Source: a virus (taxonomy: Duplodnaviria > Heunggongvirae > Uroviricota > Caudoviricetes). Taken from it: a DNA stretch of 38,319 bases. The translations under genes and the position numbers were made by a program. Positions 7,427 to 12,349 of the stretch are shown piece by piece (position 1 is the first letter of the stretch; each line of letters opens with the position of its first letter). The DNA is taken from IMG/VR virus record IMGVR_UViG_2897369580_000003, positions 1 to 38,319 of that record. One strand, 5' to 3'. Below the pieces are notes generated by a model, which was not told the origin of the DNA, searched no databases, and saw nothing but the letters and a program-made list of their open reading frames with translations.

Positions 7427-8119
7427 TTAATTGTGTCGTTTAAGGGTTTGTGACTGGCTGATTAAGACCTTTCCAAAGACCATAAACCGGTGTTCATTTT
7501 CGCTGGTAATTCCCCATTCACGGTAAATCTGGTTATCAGAAATCACCAGTAGTTTGTCAGGTATCATTTGCAGTCGTTTGACATAAATTTTATCATCAAA
7601 ACCAAATACATAGATACCATCTCCATCAAACTGATTGATACTGACATCAACGAAGATGAGATCTCCTGGCTCAATGGTTGGACACATACTGTCCCCACGA
7701 ACGTTGATAACTTTAATGTGATTGGCTGGTCGTCCGCCAAACATCGATACAGCATTATCAGTTCTGTATTCAATGGCATGAATCACATCAATGACATCAC
7801 CGCCCTGGATAAGGCCATTTCCCGCACTGGCACTGACATCCAGCATTTCAATACGGAATACATCCTTCACCTGCGCAACATCCTCACTAATACTGTTTTT
7901 ACATACAGTATTACTTTTGACGTCTGAGGTAAAGAGATCAGCAATATCAACACCTAAGCTCCTGGCAATATTACTCAGGGCTTGTTCAGTGAATTGTTTC
8001 TGCTTACCTGTTTCCAGGCGCGAGATATTCGCCGCATCCACTCCTATTGCTTCAGCGAGATCGGCGATTTTCATGTTCTTCGCCTGGCGAAGTTGTCTGA
8101 CTCGGTTTCCTATGTTCAT
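7427..8119 (-). CDS. CI-like prophage repressor (N-terminal HTH, C-terminal S24 LexA-type peptidase domain)
   Basis: 230 aa; HTH near the N-terminus; C-terminal VRGDSM ... IYVKRL pattern of S24 autopeptidases; divergent from the Cro-like gene. Confidence 0.85.
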   Translation of the reverse strand: MNIGNRVRQLRQAKNMKIADLAEAIGVDAANISRLETGKQKQFTEQALSNIARSLGVDIADLFTSDVKSNTVCKNSISEDVAQVKDVFRIEMLDVSASAGNGLIQGGDVIDVIHAIEYRTDNAVSMFGGRPANHIKVINVRGDSMCPTIEPGDLIFVDVSINQFDGDGIYVFGFDDKIYVKRLQMIPDKLLVISDNQIYREWGITSENEHRFMVFGKVLISQSQTLKRHN

Positions 8120-8216: not shown

Positions 8217-8477
8217 ATGCAATCACCATTACGAAATGTGCGTAAGGCGCACGGCTTTACTTTGCAGCATGTTGCTGCGGGCGTTCAGGTTAATCCAGCA
8301 ACGCTGAGTCGTATTGAGAGACTGGAACAAATTCCATCTATCGATCTTGCAGAGCGTTTGGCCAATTTTTTTAAGGGAGAAATCAGCGAAATGCAGATTC
8401 TCTATCCTGCACGCTTTCAATCTAGTCAAAACCGGAATGAGTTAAAACCACAGGAACAGGAGGTAAGCCGTGGGTAA
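8217..8477 (+). CDS. Cro-like HTH transcriptional regulator (YdaS-like)
   Basis: 86 aa; HTH (GFTLQHVAAGVQVNPATLSRIE); GGAGG RBS; divergent from the repressor. Confidence 0.75.
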   Translation: MQSPLRNVRKAHGFTLQHVAAGVQVNPATLSRIERLEQIPSIDLAERLANFFKGEISEMQILYPARFQSSQNRNELKPQEQEVSRG

Positions 8478-9021
8478 GCATCACTGGAAAGTGGAAAAAC
8501 AGCCTGAGTGGTACGTGAAAGCTGTCAGAAAAACTATCGCGGCGTTGCCGGGGGGTTACGCTGAAGCTGCTGAGTGGCTGGATGTAACAGAGAACGCTTT
8601 ATTCAACCGCCTTCGTGCCGATGGCGATCAGTTTTTTCCGTTGGGATGGGCAATGGTTTTACAGCGTGCGGCTGGTACTCACCACATTGCGGATGCTGTC
8701 GCACAGTCTGCTGGTGGGGTGTTTGTATCACTTCCAGAAATTGAGGAAGTAGAGAACGCTGATATCAACCAACGTCTACTGGAAGTTATTGAACAGATCG
8801 GGAGTTACTCAAAGCAGATTCGTTCGGCAATCGAAGACGGGGTAGTGGAGCCACATGAGCAGACAGCAATTAATGATGAGTTGTATCTGTCGATTTCGAA
8901 GCTCCAGGAACATGCGGCACTGGTCTACAAAATTTTCTGCGTTCCAGAAAAGAGTGACGCCCGCGAGTGTGCAGCTCCGGGCGTCGTGGCGTTTTGTGTC
9001 TGTGGAGAAACTAACGCATGA
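8470..9021 (+). CDS. YdaT-like (CII-like) early regulatory protein
   Basis: 183 aa immediately after the Cro-like gene with overlapping start; resembles the Rac racR-ydaS-ydaT arrangement by context and memory. Confidence 0.45.
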   Translation: MGKHHWKVEKQPEWYVKAVRKTIAALPGGYAEAAEWLDVTENALFNRLRADGDQFFPLGWAMVLQRAAGTHHIADAVAQSAGGVFVSLPEIEEVENADINQRLLEVIEQIGSYSKQIRSAIEDGVVEPHEQTAINDELYLSISKLQEHAALVYKIFCVPEKSDARECAAPGVVAFCVCGETNA

Positions 9022-9166
9022 ACAGTTTAACGGCAAATAACCGTTGGTCGCAACAGCTGGTGGTCCGCGTGGCTGAACACCTGTTGTTACGGCATGAATG
9101 CAGATTACCAAATCACCTGGCTGTAAGTAACCACAGAGAACTTTACCTGACTGTGGGGGGCGAGTT

Positions 9167-9346
9167 GTGCAGGAACTTAACCGCTGGTTTCGTGACGGAA
9201 GAGGACTTTATGTTCATGTTATTCGTTGGGAGCCAGAAACACAGCGCGTTATCTATCTTCGCAAAGACTACCCGCATGAGTGCTTTAGTCCTTTGTGGAA
9301 ATTCAGGCGTGATTTTGTTGAGTGTGAAGGACCACCAGCACATTGA
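9167..9346 (+). CDS. Possible small protein (59 aa, GTG start after GGGGGG RBS)
   Basis: ORF below the 60-aa track cutoff found by manual translation; no known motif. Confidence 0.25.
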   Translation: MQELNRWFRDGRGLYVHVIRWEPETQRVIYLRKDYPHECFSPLWKFRRDFVECEGPPAH

Positions 9347-9376
9347 TTCTGCCATTCCGGGACGTTACACTGTTCA

Positions 9377-9454
9377 GGCACCTTATAAAGCGGGTGCCGG
9401 GCGTGGAAACCCGGAATTCACCAAAGCGCACAACCGCGCTCTTGCGGTTTTTTT
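9377..9454 (+). terminator. Two adjacent stem-loops (GGCACC/GGTGCC 9377-9398; CCGGG/CCCGG 9397-9414) followed by an intrinsic terminator (AACCGC-gctctt-GCGGTT + T7, 9432-9454)
   Basis: Inverted repeats and T-tract read directly; lies in an ORF-poor stretch between the immunity-region genes and Rha. Confidence 0.5.
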
Positions 9455-9623
9455 GTGTCATGAGCAGCATTACGCCCAAATTATGGTGGGGCGTGCAGGG
9501 CCAACTTCGGTTGGGCCGGGTTCTTTGGTGACCGGTATTTCCACCCCTGTACGTCTCACCACCAATAAGGTCGTGGAAAGCCTTGGTGGTGAGTTATTTA
9601 AAATCACCAAAGAGGCTGCCATC

Positions 9624-10169
9624 ATGGCTACGATCCCAACCCTCACTCAACCTGAAATTGCCATCGTTGATGGTCAGGCTGTTACTTCATCCCTGGCTGT
9701 TGCCAACTTCTTCTCCAAACGTCATGACGATGTACTGAAAAAGATCCGCACGCTTGAATGCTCCGCATCATTCACTGCCCGCAATTTTTCGGTGAGTGAT
9801 TACACCGATTGCACAGGCCGCAAACTACCTTGCTATCAAATAACCCGCGACGGCTTTGCGTTTCTTGCTATGGGTTTCACGGGTAAACGTGCTGCCCAGT
9901 TCAAAGAGGCATACATCAATGCCTTTAACCAGATGGAGAAACAGCTTTCAAAGCCCGCTGTACCGAGCGACGTTGCACATAACGCCAGCGTTCTCTGTTC
10001 CTACATTTCATCAATTCATCAGGTCTGGCTGCAGCAGCTTTATCCTATGTTGGCAAAAGCCGAATCTCCGCTGGCTGTTAGCTTATATGACTATATTAAT
10101 GATGCTTCGGCGCTGGCCTGCCTCATAAATTTGTCGCTGAACCCTTCAGAGGTAAGGGGGCGCAAATGA
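9624..10169 (+). CDS. Rha-family phage regulatory protein
   Basis: Rha motif (AVTSSLAVANFFSKRHDDVLKKIRTL) near the N-terminus when started at the ATG at 9624 (AGAGG RBS); the long ORF 9018..10169 is likely an artefactual extension. Confidence 0.7.
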   Translation: MATIPTLTQPEIAIVDGQAVTSSLAVANFFSKRHDDVLKKIRTLECSASFTARNFSVSDYTDCTGRKLPCYQITRDGFAFLAMGFTGKRAAQFKEAYINAFNQMEKQLSKPAVPSDVAHNASVLCSYISSIHQVWLQQLYPMLAKAESPLAVSLYDYINDASALACLINLSLNPSEVRGRK

Positions 10170-10390
10170 TCCGGAATATTTTCAAACGTTTTACCAATCA
10201 GACTTTCCGTTGTCCTCGTCCGGGTCAGTGGTACACCACGCCTGCAGGGCATGTTCTACGTGTTAGCCTGGTTGACCGTGAATGTCAGAAGGTGGTTTGT
10301 GAACCGCTGGGCCGTAATTACCGCGTCAGTATGCCGCTTATAGCCTTTCGCTCCGGAAAAAACATGAAGCATCTCGGAGGTGCAGCATGA
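10166..10390 (+). CDS. Small hypothetical phage protein
   Basis: 74-aa ORF whose start overlaps the stop of Rha and whose stop overlaps the start of the replication gene. Confidence 0.45.
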   Translation: MIRNIFKRFTNQTFRCPRPGQWYTTPAGHVLRVSLVDRECQKVVCEPLGRNYRVSMPLIAFRSGKNMKHLGGAA

Positions 10391-11205
10391 GTATGGAGCT
10401 GATGGTTAAAGCGATGAAAATTCGAGTGGGTAATCCATTGCGAAAACTGGTTCTGATCAAGCTGGCTGATAATGCCAGTGATCAGGGTGAGTGCTGGCCC
10501 AGCTACCAGCATATTGCTGACCAGTGCGAGATTAGCAAACGTTCTGTGATGAATCATATTGCGGCCCTTTGTGAGTCCGGGCTGGTAAAAAAAGTCACCC
10601 GGAAAGGTGAAAAAGGTAACTCAAGTAATATCTATCTCCTTCATCTGGATGGTGCAGGAGATTCACTAGGGGGTAGTGCAAATAATTCACTATCTGGTGC
10701 AGCAAATTCACCAGGTAGTGCAGGAGTTGCACCAGGGGGTAGTGCAGGAGATTCACCCAGAACCAGTCACTCTTTTGAATCAGTCAAAGAACCAGTCAAT
10801 GAACCAATAGCTGTTGGTGAATCTGCTGATGAGTCTGTGCGAGTTCGTTCAAACCGACCGGAATACTCTCCGGAGTTTGAGCAGACATGGCTGGCATACC
10901 CCAAACGTGCTGGTGGCAATTCAAAATCTGCAGCCTTCAAAGCCTGGAAAGCCCGTTTGAATGAGGGAGTAAACCCCGAAACCATGCTGGAAGGTGTGAA
11001 ACGCTACGCGGGCTGGGTATCTGCGATGGGCAATAGCGGCACACAATTTGTGAAACAGGCTGTCACGTTCTTTGGTCCGGATCGTCATTTCGAAGAATCC
11101 TGGGAAGTTCCTGCGGTATCTGCAGCCAGACGTGAGGACCCGTACTTCAAATCCAGTTACGACAACGTGGACTACAGCCAGATCCCGGCAGGATTCAGGG
11201 GGTGA
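10387..11205 (+). CDS. Putative replication initiator (O-like; N-terminal winged-helix, Gly/Ser-rich linker)
   Basis: 272 aa; N-terminal LRKLVLIKLADNASDQGECWPSYQHIADQCEIS pattern typical of phage replication-initiation HTH domains; internal iteron array. Confidence 0.6.
   Translation: MSMELMVKAMKIRVGNPLRKLVLIKLADNASDQGECWPSYQHIADQCEISKRSVMNHIAALCESGLVKKVTRKGEKGNSSNIYLLHLDGAGDSLGGSANNSLSGAANSPGSAGVAPGGSAGDSPRTSHSFESVKEPVNEPIAVGESADESVRVRSNRPEYSPEFEQTWLAYPKRAGGNSKSAAFKAWKARLNEGVNPETMLEGVKRYAGWVSAMGNSGTQFVKQAVTFFGPDRHFEESWEVPAVSAARREDPYFKSSYDNVDYSQIPAGFRG
10649..10810. repeat. Iteron-like direct repeats inside the replication gene (about five roughly 21-bp units containing GGT(A/G)(G/C)TGCA...ATTCAC, then three AACCAGTCA units): candidate origin
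   Basis: Repeats read directly; an origin inside the linker-coding part of the initiator gene is the lambda O arrangement. Confidence 0.55.
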
Positions 11206-11696
11206 TCGTGAGTCTTTTGAATGAAGTTCAGAAATTCATTGAAGCCCATCCGGGGTGTACTTCCGGAGACATTGCGGATGCTTTTGCTGGTTACTCACGG
11301 CAGCGCGTTCTGCAGTCAGCAAGCAAGTTACGTCAGAGTGGGCGTGTGGCTCACCGTTGTGAAGGAGATACACGCAGACATTTCCCGCGCCTGACTGAGA
11401 GAGCGCAGGAGCCGGAACCACAATCTGTTCGTGAAACCAGACCTGTGCGCAATTTCTATGTCGGCACTAACGACCCCCGGGTGATTTTGTGCCTGATCCG
11501 CCAGGCTGAAGAACTGGAGTCCAGGGGCTTATTCCGTCGAGCTGCAACGGTGTGGATGGAGGCATTCCGTGAAAGCCACTCCCAGCCAGAACGAAACAAT
11601 TTTCTGGCGCATCGTGAGCGGTGCTTACGGAAAAGCAGCAAGCGCGCTGCATCGGGTGAAGAGTGGTATCTGTCAGGGAATTACGTGGGGGCTTAA
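11202..11696 (+). CDS. Hypothetical phage protein
   Basis: 164-aa ORF; start region overlaps the replication gene stop; stop overlaps the methyltransferase start (TAATG). Confidence 0.5.
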   Translation: MIVSLLNEVQKFIEAHPGCTSGDIADAFAGYSRQRVLQSASKLRQSGRVAHRCEGDTRRHFPRLTERAQEPEPQSVRETRPVRNFYVGTNDPRVILCLIRQAEELESRGLFRRAATVWMEAFRESHSQPERNNFLAHRERCLRKSSKRAASGEEWYLSGNYVGA

Positions 11697-12349
11697 TGAG
11701 TAATAAATATTGCCAGGCGCTGGTGGAGCTGCGGAACAAACCAGCCCATGAACTGAAGGAAGTGGGCGATCAGTGGCGCACGCCGGACAACATTTTCTGG
11801 GGAATTAACACCCTGTTTGGCCCGTTTGTTCTAGATCTGTTTACTGACGGTGATAACGCCAAATGTGCCGCGTATTACACGGCGGAAGATAACGCGCTGG
11901 CGCATGACTGGTCAGAACGTCTTGCGGAGCTTAAAGGTGCTGCCTTTGGTAATCCCCCATACAGCCGCGCCAGTCAGCATGAGGGGCAATACATCACCGG
12001 CATGCGTTACATCATGAAACATGCCAGTGCCATGCGTGATAAGGGCGGGCGCTATGTTTTCCTGATCAAAGCGGCCACCAGCGAAGTGTGGTGGCCGGAA
12101 GATGCAGATCATATTGCTTTTATTCGCGGGCGTATTGGTTTTGAACTGCCTGCCTGGTTTATACCGAAGGACGAGAAGCAGGTGCCGACAGGCGCTTTCT
12201 TCGCTGGTGCTATTGCTGTTTTCGACAAGACCTGGAAGGGACCGGCAATCAGCTACATCGGGCGCGATGAACTTGAGGCATGTGGTGAGGCGTTTCTGGC
12301 GCAGGTTCGCCAGCAGGCGGAAAAACTGGTCAGGGAGATGGCGGCATGA
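11696..12349 (+). CDS. Phage DNA N6-adenine methyltransferase (Dam-like)
   Basis: FGNPPYS catalytic motif; start chosen at the ATG overlapping the upstream stop (ORF track begins at 11663). Confidence 0.75.
   Translation: MSNKYCQALVELRNKPAHELKEVGDQWRTPDNIFWGINTLFGPFVLDLFTDGDNAKCAAYYTAEDNALAHDWSERLAELKGAAFGNPPYSRASQHEGQYITGMRYIMKHASAMRDKGGRYVFLIKAATSEVWWPEDADHIAFIRGRIGFELPAWFIPKDEKQVPTGAFFAGAIAVFDKTWKGPAISYIGRDELEACGEAFLAQVRQQAEKLVREMAA

What the first reader, a model, noticed from the sequence alone, without database searches (positions are those of the whole stretch)
10649..10810. Iteron array embedded in the replication initiator gene (candidate origin)
About five roughly 21-bp direct repeats and a second set of AACCAGTCA repeats lie inside the region of the initiator gene that encodes a Gly/Ser-rich linker. 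This mirrors lambda ori within gene O.
Basis: partly seen in the sequence, partly recalled or inferred. Interest (0 to 1): 0.35.

Follow-up and report, generated by a model that had tools for sequence, protein, structure and literature searches.

The report
Phage replication origin inside initiator gene
The repeats are real: five protein-binding-type DNA repeats plus a second, very widely conserved DNA element sit inside a prophage's replication-initiator gene and are almost certainly its replication origin, an arrangement already known from phage lambda but not described for this widespread gene family.

Summary

**Setting.** The window is an SfV/cdtI/mEp460-type E. coli prophage carrying the "Eru6" replication module of Stx phages. 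Gene 10387-11205 encodes a 272-aa initiator: an HTH_36 winged-helix N-domain, a disordered linker and a helical C-domain.

**Iterons.** The linker DNA holds five 19-bp dyad-symmetric sites, TRGTGCA-N5-TKCACYA (10650-10758, spacing 24/21/21/24). They occur nowhere else in the 38 kb.
- Their similarity is at DNA level. None of 20,000 synonymous recodings of the same protein gives more than 2 sites.
- In relatives the same site is read in two reading frames within one array.
- The half-site sequence changes together with the recognition helix.
- In natural chimeras the array stays with the N-domain.
- Natural alleles carry 1 to 9 copies.

**Second repeat set.** The GAAYCAGTCA units (10756-10806) are not type-specific iterons. 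They form a ~45-bp element shared by nearly all relatives across Gammaproteobacteria. Every synonymous site is frozen (7 synonymous against 117 nonsynonymous differences). The element is also the crossover point where N- and C-modules are exchanged.

**Classification.** It works like lambda ori in gene O but is not a lambda O homologue. There is no classic AT-rich tract and no P-like gene. Novelty: new member of a known kind.

The parts
10387..11205 (+). Replication initiator gene (272 aa): winged-helix N-domain, disordered linker, helical C-domain
   Evidence: ORF. Pfam HTH_36 1.8e-11, 44.1 bits against a cut-off of 25. phrog_270 'replication initiation protein' 5.2e-88. About 98% identical to SfV orf39, cdtI orf46, mEp460 and Stx2a_WGPS2 'replication protein'.
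10387..10647 (+). Coding region of the N-terminal winged helix-turn-helix domain (aa 1-87), the presumed iteron-binding domain
   Evidence: The AF2 model has pLDDT 77-91, four helices and a beta-hairpin wing. Foldseek gives only weak, generic winged-helix matches, including DnaD-N and RepA_N initiators. The recognition-helix sequence co-varies with the iteron half-site.
10607..10646 (.). Least stable 40-mer of the 5-kb early region, directly left of the array
   Evidence: Nearest-neighbour dG is -45.7 against a regional mean of -56.0 (sd 3.5). Its synonymous sites are not conserved in relatives, so its role is doubtful.
10650..10668 (.). Iteron 1, TGGTGCAGGAGATTCACTA
10674..10692 (.). Iteron 2, TAGTGCAAATAATTCACTA
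10695..10713 (.). Iteron 3, TGGTGCAGCAAATTCACCA
10716..10734 (.). Iteron 4, TAGTGCAGGAGTTGCACCA (a perfect match to the pattern on both strands)
10740..10758 (.). Iteron 5, TAGTGCAGGAGATTCACCC; its right end abuts the conserved element
   Evidence: The offset of the last iteron from the element is the same in all relatives.
10756..10806 (.). Family-wide conserved DNA element, CCCAGAACCAGTCACTCTTTTGAAtCAGTCAAAGAACCAGTCAATGAACCA. It contains GAAYCAGTCA units at 10760, 10777 and 10789 and a truncated unit at 10801. It is the candidate origin core and the crossover point for module exchange.
   Evidence: Present with <=5 mismatches in 28 nt in 72 of 80 homologues that were found through the N-domain protein alone. 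Differences from consensus are 7 synonymous against 117 nonsynonymous, compared with 772 against 249 in the N-domain control. A single codon is used at 12 codons of the element region and 93-97% at three more, against a mean top-codon fraction of 0.51 in the N-domain. The crossover in chimeras L218 and L219 lies in this element. It is the locally most AT-rich stretch, about 60% AT, and lies among the ten least stable 40-mers of the early region.
10815..10828 (.). Isolated inverted half-site, TGGTGAATCTGCTG, to the right of the element
   Evidence: Inverted repeats I2, I3 and I6 pair it with iterons 3, 5 and 1. In chimera L218 it lies on the non-cognate side of the crossover, so it is probably incidental.
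10855..11202 (+). Coding region of the C-terminal domain (aa 157-272), the presumed module for recruiting host replication proteins
   Evidence: The C-terminal part of the protein (aa ~140-272) matches phrog_26426 'replication protein' 7e-62, phrog_1701 'DnaD-like helicase loader' 8e-33 and phrog_9327 'primosomal protein' 2e-15. It is exchanged independently of the N-half among phages. The AF2 model shows helices at 162-214 with moderate confidence. No Pfam, NCBIfam or PDB sequence match was found.

Best explanation
The segment 10650-10806 is the replication origin of this prophage, embedded in the linker-coding part of its own initiator gene.

Shown:
- Five 19-bp dyad-symmetric iterons, conserved at DNA level, lie at fixed two-turn spacing (21-24 bp).
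- Directly to their right lies a ~45-bp element. It is conserved at every synonymous site across a very large family of gammaproteobacterial prophage initiator genes.
- Iteron sequence co-varies with the recognition helix, and iterons are inherited with the N-terminal winged-helix domain.
- The encoded peptide is a disordered linker that tolerates 1 to 9 repeat copies and even a change of reading frame.

Inferred:
- After transcription from the early-right promoter, dimers of the N-domain bind the ten half-sites and build an O-some-like nucleoprotein complex.
- The complex stresses the neighbouring conserved element. That element consists of tandem ~12-bp GAAYCRGTCAWW units and is the locally most AT-rich stretch. 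The duplex opens there.
- The C-terminal (DnaD/primosomal-like) domain brings in the host helicase machinery. In this phage no P-like loader or helicase gene follows.
For: Gene identity and operon position.

Repeats are real and unique to this place.

The constraint is at DNA level, not peptide level:
- None of 20,000 synonymous recodings gives more than 2 sites, against 5 observed.
- The same site, GTGCAGGAGATTCAC, is translated as SAGDSP and as VQEIHQ within single arrays (L119, L023). In Vibrio phage D171 the site is read as VTESH and as GDRESH.
- Across 108 distinct sites the unforced flanking positions are conserved (T at -2 in 100 of 108; Y and A at +15 and +16), while the central 5 bp vary.

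Geometry: in 73 homologues chosen through the protein alone, the dyad-symmetry score peaks at fixed offsets of -19, -43, -64, -88 and -109 from the element.

Specificity: each recognition-helix class has its own half-site.
- CEISKRSVMNHI goes with GTGCA.
- CEMxxRSAIxHI goes with GTGAA.
- CEMSRKTAIGHI goes with GTGTA.
- CETSRSSVKSHI goes with GGGCA.
- CECSKSAVRxHI goes with TGCC/GGCA.
- CEIDRSTVRKHI goes with GTAGGC.

Linkage: tblastn shows the N-half (aa 1 to ~140, including the repeats) and the C-half recombining independently. Chimeras L218 and L219 cross over inside the element and keep the iterons of their N-domain.

Linker tolerance: the linker has pLDDT below 50, and natural alleles of 242-302 aa carry 1, 2, 5, 7, 8 or 9 iterons.

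The element.

Precedent: lambda, Stx-phage and P22 origins lie in the O / gene 18 coding region (PMC7466680; PMC8022706; P22 rep_origin annotation). The pSK41 origin lies within rep and its linker is dispensable. In pPR9 an N-terminal domain of Pfam family PF13730 replaced the ~500-bp region that in pSK41 holds the RepA_N domain and the origin, and its rep region supports autonomous replication (PMC5703833).
Against: - No experiment shows origin activity for this family. The Eru papers state that nothing is known about replication of these phages (PMC8951638).
- There is no lambda-like AT-rich tract. The element is only about 57-60% AT.
- The least stable segment lies to the left of the array and is not conserved.
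- No DnaA or IHF consensus sites were found.
- Iterons and N-domain are adjacent, so co-variation is partly confounded by linkage.
- Alleles with 1-2 iterons exist, and one allele (P0039) lacks the element. These may be defective prophages, or they may show that the elements are dispensable.
- How the helicase is recruited without a P-like gene is unknown.
Confidence: 0.8

Rival explanations
1. The repeats are only a repetitive Gly/Ser-rich peptide linker created by recent tandem DNA duplication. The DNA itself has no function.
For: The repeats are in frame, with periods of 21 or 24 nt. They encode a low-complexity, disordered linker. Copy number varies through slippage or unequal recombination.
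Against: - The same DNA site is read in different frames within one array.
- Relatives encode unrelated peptides (GSAGDS, PVPPKST, VTESH, GAGAA) at the same place, always from dyad-symmetric DNA sites at fixed offsets.
- The arms are conserved while the spacers vary.
- Codon choice is non-random.
Confidence: 0.03
2. The dyad sites do bind the initiator, but they serve regulation rather than initiation. Possible roles are autoregulatory roadblock, titration, handcuffing or incompatibility. DNA opening and helicase loading would take place elsewhere.
For: - Initiator-binding repeats have control roles in iteron plasmids (established knowledge).
- No convincing AT-rich unwinding element adjoins the array.
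- Alleles with only 1-2 sites exist.
Against: - No other copy of the site exists in the 38-kb window, so a separate origin would have no binding sites.
- The fixed register between the last iteron and a DNA-constrained element is what an origin core would look like.
- Every characterised case with repeats inside the initiator gene is an origin (PMC7466680, PMC5703833).
Confidence: 0.1
3. The second repeat set (the conserved element, 10756-10806) is kept only as a homology patch for exchanging N- and C-modules, or because of an RNA- or translation-level role such as ribosome pausing at the invariant rare AGA codon. It would not be an origin component.
For: - The crossover of natural chimeras lies exactly in it.
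- Module boundaries in tblastn fall at aa ~138-142.
- The invariant codons include AGA, which is rare in E. coli (own knowledge of codon usage).
Against: - Selection on a single phage to keep a recombination linker is weak (established argument against the Susskind-Botstein linker model).
- Variation follows the DNA unit, not the codon. The Y position of GAAYCAGTCA is a 2nd codon position in one unit and a 1st codon position in the next.
- There is no significant RNA or ssDNA structure (z -1.7 and -1.8) and no Rfam family.
- The element keeps a fixed register with the iterons.
Confidence: 0.12

Closest known systems
ori-lambda in gene O, and the P22, 933W and P27 origins in gene 18 / O
   Same: - Direct repeats of about 19-21 bp with internal dyad symmetry lie in the middle of the initiator gene, in the part that encodes the linker between the DNA-binding N-domain and the recruiting C-domain.
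- The gene lies in the early-right operon after cII.
- Iterons differ between phages while the part to their right is shared.
- Copy number varies (4 in lambda, 6 in Stx phages; PMC7466680).
- N- and C-halves are exchanged as modules.
   Different: - The initiator has Pfam HTH_36, not Phage_rep_O, and shows no BLASTP similarity to P22 gp18.
- There is no A/T-rich tract. In its place is a ~45-bp sequence-specific element with tandem GAAYCRGTCAWW units.
- No P-like or DnaB-like gene follows in this phage; a PerC-like regulator does.
RepA_N plasmid replicons (pSK41) and the chimeric pPR9 Rep
   Same: - The origin (Rep boxes) lies centrally within rep.
- The N-terminal winged-helix domain binds the boxes.
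- The central, origin-encoded peptide is a dispensable linker.
- The C-domain is host-specific and contacts host replication proteins.
- In pPR9 a phage-derived PF13730 N-domain replaced the ~500-bp region that in pSK41 holds the RepA_N domain and the origin, and the pPR9 rep region supports autonomous replication (PMC5703833).
   Different: - These are Gram-positive theta plasmids.
- No RepA_N (PF06970) domain is found here.
- Structural similarity to RepA_N and DnaD-N is only weak and generic (E >= 0.03).
- Copy control by antisense RNA is not seen here.
'Eru6' and related Eru replication modules of Stx phages (PMC8951638)
   Same: The window's gene is 98.2% identical in DNA to the gene of the Eru6 type phage Stx2a_WGPS2. 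Eru5 (its type phage is Stx2a_F403; relative F451 is locus L007) carries a homologous N-domain with its own iterons and the same element.
   Different: Those papers classify gene content only. They describe no origin or iterons and state that replication of Eru phages is unknown.
Iteron plasmids (Rep_3: pSC101, F, R6K, RK2) and oriC
   Same: An array of initiator sites lies next to short tandem repeats where the duplex opens. The 13-mers of oriC and of plasmid unwinding elements are formally similar to the tandem ~12-mers here (own knowledge).
   Different: In those systems the iterons lie outside the rep gene, DnaA boxes are usually present, and the unwinding repeats are strongly AT-rich. None of this applies here.

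Membership tests
Lambdoid 'origin inside the initiator gene' architecture (functional class) | Three or more direct repeats of ~19-21 bp with internal dyad symmetry in the central, linker-coding part of the initiator gene | tested here: met
   Five 19-bp dyads at 10650-10758, spacing 24/21/21/24. The linker is disordered.
Lambdoid 'origin inside the initiator gene' architecture (functional class) | Repeats are specific for the initiator's own DNA-binding domain | tested here: inconclusive
   The half-site co-varies with the recognition helix and is co-inherited with the N-domain in chimeras. Binding itself cannot be tested with these tools, and physical linkage is a confounder.
Lambdoid 'origin inside the initiator gene' architecture (functional class) | AT-rich unwinding tract next to the iterons | tested here: not met
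   No 40-bp window falls below 37.5% GC, and the segment to the right of the array is 40-45% GC. The family average peaks at only 60% AT in the element. The only clearly unstable segment lies to the left and is not conserved.
Lambdoid 'origin inside the initiator gene' architecture (functional class) | Supports initiator-dependent replication | not testable with these tools
   Requires cloning or marker-frequency analysis.
Lambda O protein family (Pfam Phage_rep_O, PF04492) | Match to the Phage_rep_O profile or sequence similarity to lambda O / P22 gp18 | tested here: not met
   No PF04492 hit for the window protein. P22 gp18 hits PF04492 at 6.9e-38. BLASTP of the window protein against P22 gp18 gives E 3.7.
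Lambda O protein family (Pfam Phage_rep_O, PF04492) | Partner P-type helicase loader or DnaB-type helicase gene immediately downstream | tested here: not met
   The downstream genes are a PerC-like regulator, Dam, a LexA-like repressor and RusA. Relatives with other C-domains do carry helicase genes.
HTH_36 (PF13730) phage/plasmid initiators | Pfam HTH_36 match above the gathering threshold in the N-terminal domain | tested here: met
   44.1 bits against a cut-off of 25, residues 17-67. All 120 closest database relatives are annotated PF13730.
RepA_N plasmid initiators (PF06970) | RepA_N domain | tested here: not met
   No PF06970 hit. Foldseek matches to RepA_N structures 4pql, 4pt7 and 5kbj are weak (E 0.03-0.06) and generic for winged helices.
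Rep_3-type iteron plasmids | Rep_3 domain; iterons outside the rep gene, with DnaA boxes | tested here: not met
   No Rep_3 hit. The iterons lie inside the gene. Only two one-mismatch DnaA-box-like sites lie in 10100-11400, which is no more than the window-wide density.

The most novel reading that the evidence does not exclude
The ~45-bp element to the right of the iterons (10756-10806) is a universal origin core for a very large family of HTH_36 prophage initiators. It would be the site that is opened, or that is recognised by a conserved surface of the initiator or by a host factor. It is frozen at every synonymous site in genomes from Enterobacterales, Pseudomonas, Shewanella, Aeromonas, Vibrio, Marinomonas, Stenotrophomonas and others.

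Because it is shared, it would also act as the homologous crossover point. Through it, origin-specificity modules (N-domain plus iterons) are shuffled against helicase-recruitment modules (C-domains). That would be a sequence-specific replacement for the AT-rich tract of lambda and a concrete mechanism for mosaic evolution of replication modules, including those of Stx phages.
Probability: 0.5. Interest if true: 0.55.

Novelty: new member of a known kind. Interest (0 to 1): 0.42.

Why it matters
This initiator type is very common. About half of complete E. coli genomes (2,708 of 5,426) hold at least a partial match, and 896 hold a full-length copy. It also defines non-lambdoid 'Eru' replication modules of Shiga-toxin phages, whose replication is stated to be uncharacterised (PMC8951638). 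Replication of those phages drives toxin gene dosage.

Locating the origin, its specificity determinants and a shared core gives several practical results:
- Direct targets for cloning mini-replicons.
- Predictions of replication incompatibility or immunity groups from sequence, using the iteron type.
- An explanation for length polymorphism of the gene.
- An explanation of how replication modules are swapped.

The family-wide element is also a clean example of a coding segment under stronger DNA-level than protein-level selection.

Tried and rejected
- **Known RNA families.** The Rfam scan of 9800-11800 gave only a sub-threshold mir-875 match on the palindromic array (22 bits against a gathering score of 84). 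I treat it as chance.
- **Strand folding.** ssDNA and RNA folding of 10640-10830 gave z-scores of -1.8 and -1.7, so there is no strong structure.
- **Host-factor sites.** Scans for DnaA, IHF, Fis and GATC gave nothing beyond background. The one exact Fis-pattern match is iteron 2 itself.
- **AT-rich tract.** Composition and stability profiles found no AT-rich tract to the right of the array.
- **C-domain identity.** PDB sequence search, NCBIfam and Pfam on the C-domain gave no informative match.
- **Fold search.** Foldseek on the whole AF2 model (mean pLDDT 59.5) gave only generic winged-helix hits with E >= 0.007. It cannot identify the C-domain.
- **Plasmids as evidence of autonomy.** I considered plasmid records as evidence for autonomous replication. 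Hits of 38-44 kb look like circular phage genomes deposited as plasmids, with no replicon type. This is weak evidence only.
- **Literature.** The SfV genome paper (PMC134923) is not held. Searches for HTH_36 with iterons, SfV with iterons, and the element's sequence found no description of this origin. Older subscription literature could not be searched, so prior description cannot be excluded.
- **Window-only statistic.** The count of the 10-mer GAACCAGTCA in the window alone is not significant. Only the comparative data make the second repeat set meaningful.
Full report
**1. What the window is**

The 38-kb window is a temperate phage integrated in E. coli. It is 100% identical over the gene of interest to the chromosome of E. 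coli ATCC BAA-2469. It is about 98% identical to phages SfV, cdtI, mEp460, 2H10 and Ayreon, to many Stx2c phages and to Stx2a_WGPS2. Stx2a_WGPS2 is the type phage of the 'Eru6' replication module of Shiga-toxin phages.

The finding sits in the early-right operon. The gene order is as follows:
- cI-like repressor, 7427-8119, minus strand
- CII-like gene, 8470-9021
- Rha/Ash regulator, 9018-10169
- a small ORF, 10166-10390
- the initiator, 10387-11205
- PerC-like regulator, 11202-11696
- Dam methylase, a LexA-like repressor and RusA

**2.

The interval holds five copies of a site whose core is GTGCA-N5-TKCAC, starting at 10652, 10676, 10697, 10718 and 10742. Extended by comparison with relatives, the site is a 19-bp dyad, TRGTGCA-N5-TKCACYA. 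With up to two mismatches it matches ten times in the window (five sites on both strands), all in 10650-10758. In 100 shuffles the mean was 0.94 and none reached ten. Spacing is 24, 21, 21 and 24 bp.

The second set is GAACCAGTCA at 10760 and 10789, GAATCAGTCA at 10777, and a truncated GAACCAATAG at 10801. Counted in the window alone this 10-mer is not significant.

Both sets lie at codons 88-141 of the 272-aa protein, in a Gly/Ser/Ala/Pro-rich stretch. The AlphaFold2 model has three parts: a confident winged-helix N-domain (aa 1-89, pLDDT 77-91), a disordered stretch (aa 90-156, pLDDT 30-48) and a helical C-domain of moderate confidence.

**3. The repeats are constrained as DNA, not as peptide**

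- *Recoding test.* I resampled synonymous codons 20,000 times with the window's own codon usage, keeping the protein unchanged. The iteron pattern appeared 0 times in 19,548 resamplings, once in 451 and twice in 1, against 5 observed. Repeated 9-mers in the interval numbered 38, against a resampled mean of 0.7 and a maximum of 15. All seven Ala codons in the array are GCA.
- *Reading frame.* Recent duplication alone could produce that result, so I looked at relatives. In several arrays the same DNA site is read in two frames. GTGCAGGAGATTCAC encodes SAGDSP in one copy and VQEIHQ in the next (L119, L023). Vibrio phage D171 reads GGTGACAGAGAGTCAC as VTESH three times and as GDRESH once.
- *Arms against spacer.* Among 108 distinct sites from 45 arrays, positions that my search pattern did not fix are conserved on the flanks (T at -2 in 100 of 108, R at -1, Y at +15, A at +16). 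The central five bases vary.
- *Unrelated peptides.* Homologues encode quite different peptides in the same place (GSAGDS, GAGAA, PVPPKST, PMPSDGT, VTESH, GTKQPGVVAESN). Each comes from its own dyad-symmetric DNA repeat.

**4. The repeats belong to the N-terminal DNA-binding domain**

tblastn against phage genomes shows two halves that recombine independently. One is aa 1 to ~140, which includes the repeats. The other is aa ~142 to 272.

When arrays are sorted by half-site, the recognition-helix sequence sorts with them:

| Recognition helix | Half-site |
|---|---|
| CEISKRSVMNHI | GTGCA |
| CEMxxRSAIxHI | GTGAA |
| CEMSRKTAIGHI | GTGTA |
| CETSRSSVKSHI | GGGCA |
| CECSKSAVRxHI | TGCC/GGCA |
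| CEIDRSTVRKHI | GTAGGC |

Natural chimeras exist. P0065 (locus L218) is 100% identical in DNA to the Stx2a_F451-type gene up to the conserved element and carries that type's GGGGCAGGAGCTGCCCC iterons. From the element onwards it is mostly 93-100% identical to the window's gene. P0072 (L219) does the same with a TGCC-type N-domain and array.

Linkage confounds co-variation. Even so, the pattern is what the cognate-site hypothesis predicts. It is also the classical argument used for lambda, P22 and phage L (PMC8022706).

**5. Geometry and copy number**

I collected 80 homologues from 80 bacterial species using only the N-domain protein. In 73 of these loci, a generic 7+5+7 dyad-symmetry score peaks at fixed offsets of -19, -43, -64, -88 and -109 from the conserved element, whatever the iteron sequence. 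The array geometry is therefore conserved.

Copy number is polymorphic among near-identical alleles:
- one iteron (242 aa)
- two (250 aa, seen on 64 contigs)
- five (272 aa; a cluster of 2,852 member sequences holds alleles of this length, 97% identical to the window's)
- seven, eight (cdtI, +66 bp) and nine (296 aa and 302 aa)
- ES1 has one extra GAACCAGTCAAA unit

The linker peptide therefore tolerates large length changes. The origin-encoded central domain of pSK41 Rep behaves the same way (PMC5703833).

**6. The second repeat set is a different thing: a family-wide element**

Nine of eleven N-domain homologues found by tblastn carry nearly the same DNA directly to the right of their different iterons: AGAACCAGTCACTCTTTTGAACCAGTCAAnGAACC. 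They come from phages of E. coli, Salmonella, Klebsiella, Pectobacterium, Aeromonas, Vibrio and Stenotrophomonas.

Of these, 112 had enough flanking DNA to analyse, giving 78 distinct upstream arrays. All lie in an open frame.

The unbiased set gives the strongest evidence:
- 72 of 80 loci carry the 28-nt core with at most 5 mismatches. Most of the remainder are indel variants of it.
- In 70 distinct sequences, the nine core codons differ from consensus at 7 synonymous and 117 nonsynonymous positions. In 27 codons of the protein-conserved N-domain the counts are 772 and 249.
- At 12 codons of the element region a single codon is used by every sequence that has the consensus residue, and three more use one codon in 93-97%. 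In the N-domain the top codon averages 51%, with 3-7 codons in use.
- The variation follows the DNA unit. The C/T position of GAAYCAGTCA is a second codon position in the first unit (Thr/Ile) and a first codon position in the next (Pro/Ser).

The element is the locally most AT-rich stretch of the family profile, at about 60%. In the window it is among the ten least stable 40-mers of the 5-kb early region. It is not an AT tract in the lambda sense.

It is also exactly where the chimeras cross over.

**7. Mechanism**

Shown: the anatomy above.

Inferred:
- N-domain dimers bind the ten half-sites and form an O-some-like complex.
- The adjoining element is where the duplex is opened or where a conserved partner acts. 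Its tandem ~12-bp units recall the 13-mers beside the DnaA boxes of oriC (own knowledge).
- The C-domain recruits host replication proteins. It matches PHROG families labelled DnaD-like helicase loader and primosomal protein.

In this phage no loader or helicase gene follows. Relatives with other C-domains carry primase-helicase, DnaB-like or P-like genes. Transcription from the early-right promoter passes through the origin, as in lambda, so transcriptional activation is possible. This too is inference.

**8. Comparison with known systems**

The arrangement works like ori-lambda in gene O and like P22 ori in gene 18 (PMC7466680). The protein, however, is not a member of the lambda O family. 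It has no Phage_rep_O match and no BLASTP similarity to P22 gp18, while P22 gp18 scores 6.9e-38 on that profile. It belongs to Pfam HTH_36.

The closest experimentally studied parallels are both described in PMC5703833:
- RepA_N plasmids such as pSK41. The origin lies within rep, the central linker is dispensable, and the C-domain binds host DnaG.
- The chimeric pPR9 Rep. A phage-derived PF13730 N-domain replaced the ~500-bp region that in pSK41 holds the RepA_N domain and the origin, and the pPR9 rep region supports autonomous replication.

I found no description of iterons or an origin for the SfV/Eru-type initiators in the searchable library. The Eru papers say nothing is known about replication of these phages. 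The older SfV paper could not be read, so an earlier remark on these repeats cannot be excluded.

**9. Verdict**

It is a new member of a known kind. One feature goes beyond the template: the sequence-specific, synonymously frozen element that replaces the AT-rich tract and also serves as the module junction.

Confidence that the five dyads are cognate initiator sites forming the phage origin is about 0.8. Confidence that the shared element is a functional origin core, rather than only a recombination patch or an RNA-level signal, is about 0.5.

Noticed in passing
window 10756-10806; loci L005-L012, L017-L136, L138-L217: A ~45-bp DNA element (CCCAGAACCAGTCACTCTTTTGAACCAGTCAWWGAACC) lies inside the initiator gene and is conserved at every synonymous site across prophages of many gammaproteobacterial orders. 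Protein-changing substitutions are tolerated (7 synonymous against 117 nonsynonymous differences).
   Followed up: yes
L218 78-860 and L219 817-1677 against window 10387-11205: Natural chimeric initiator genes cross over exactly inside the conserved element. A foreign N-domain with its own iterons is joined to a C-half mostly 93-100% identical to the window's.
   Followed up: yes
proteins P0001, P0010, P0021, P0024, P0031, P0042; L001 3214-3560; L002 1214-1505: Near-identical alleles carry 1, 2, 5, 7, 8 or 9 iterons (242-302 aa) and 2-4 GAACCAGTCA units. Whether the 1- and 2-iteron alleles are functional or belong to defective prophages is unknown.
   Followed up: partly
protein P0039 (247 aa): This allele has a deletion that removes the fifth iterons-coding unit and the whole conserved element (GGSAGDSPRTSHSFEPVKEPVNEPIA) and keeps the frame. 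It may be an origin-dead prophage copy.
   Followed up: no
window 10585-10610, minus strand: A terminator-like hairpin with a T-run (TCACCTTTCCGGGTGA CTTTTTTTAC) lies on the antisense strand inside the N-domain coding region, at the left edge of the least stable 40-mer (10607-10646). The scan found 8 such sites against 5.6 expected, so it may be chance.
   Followed up: no
window 10815-10828: An isolated inverted half-iteron (TGGTGAATCTGCTG; TGGTGCA in SfV and cdtI) lies just right of the conserved element, so that iteron-like half-sites flank the element. In chimera L218 it lies on the non-cognate side of the crossover, so it is probably incidental.
   Followed up: partly
L137 (P22) 1341-1485, especially 1413-1425: The 12-mer GAATCAGTCAAA, identical to window 10777-10788, occurs in the annotated P22 origin as its last, degenerate repeat, just before the AT-rich tract. 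P22 iteron cores (ATCGGTAAAA) resemble the GAAYCRGTCAWW units of the shared element, although P22 gp18 belongs to a different protein family.
   Followed up: no
window 11202-11696: The gene after the initiator is a PerC-family regulator (yfdN-like). Its start overlaps the initiator's stop codon. No P-like loader or helicase gene is present, so helicase recruitment must rely on the initiator's C-domain and host proteins.
   Followed up: partly
window 9018-10169: This long ORF combines Ash and Rha domains. Its first ~60 codons lie outside the PHROG match (phrog_821 aligns from residue 61), so the true start may be further downstream.
   Followed up: no
window 7770-7799: A 9-bp tandem repeat (TCAATGACA x3.3) lies inside the cI-like repressor gene (7427-8119, minus strand).
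   Followed up: no
plasmid records NZ_CP118695.1 (L220), CP077666.1, CP080634.1 and others: Circular 'plasmids' of 38-44 kb, with no replicon type and predicted non-mobilizable, carry this initiator family. They look like circular phage genomes or phage-plasmids.
   Followed up: partly
window 10676-10810, frame +2: A 44-aa ORF (MQIIHYLVQQIHQVVQELHQGVVQEIH...) is open across the array in a second frame. The peptide it would encode is the one that some relatives actually read in frame (VQEIHQ). This shows that the array stays open in more than one frame.
   Followed up: partly
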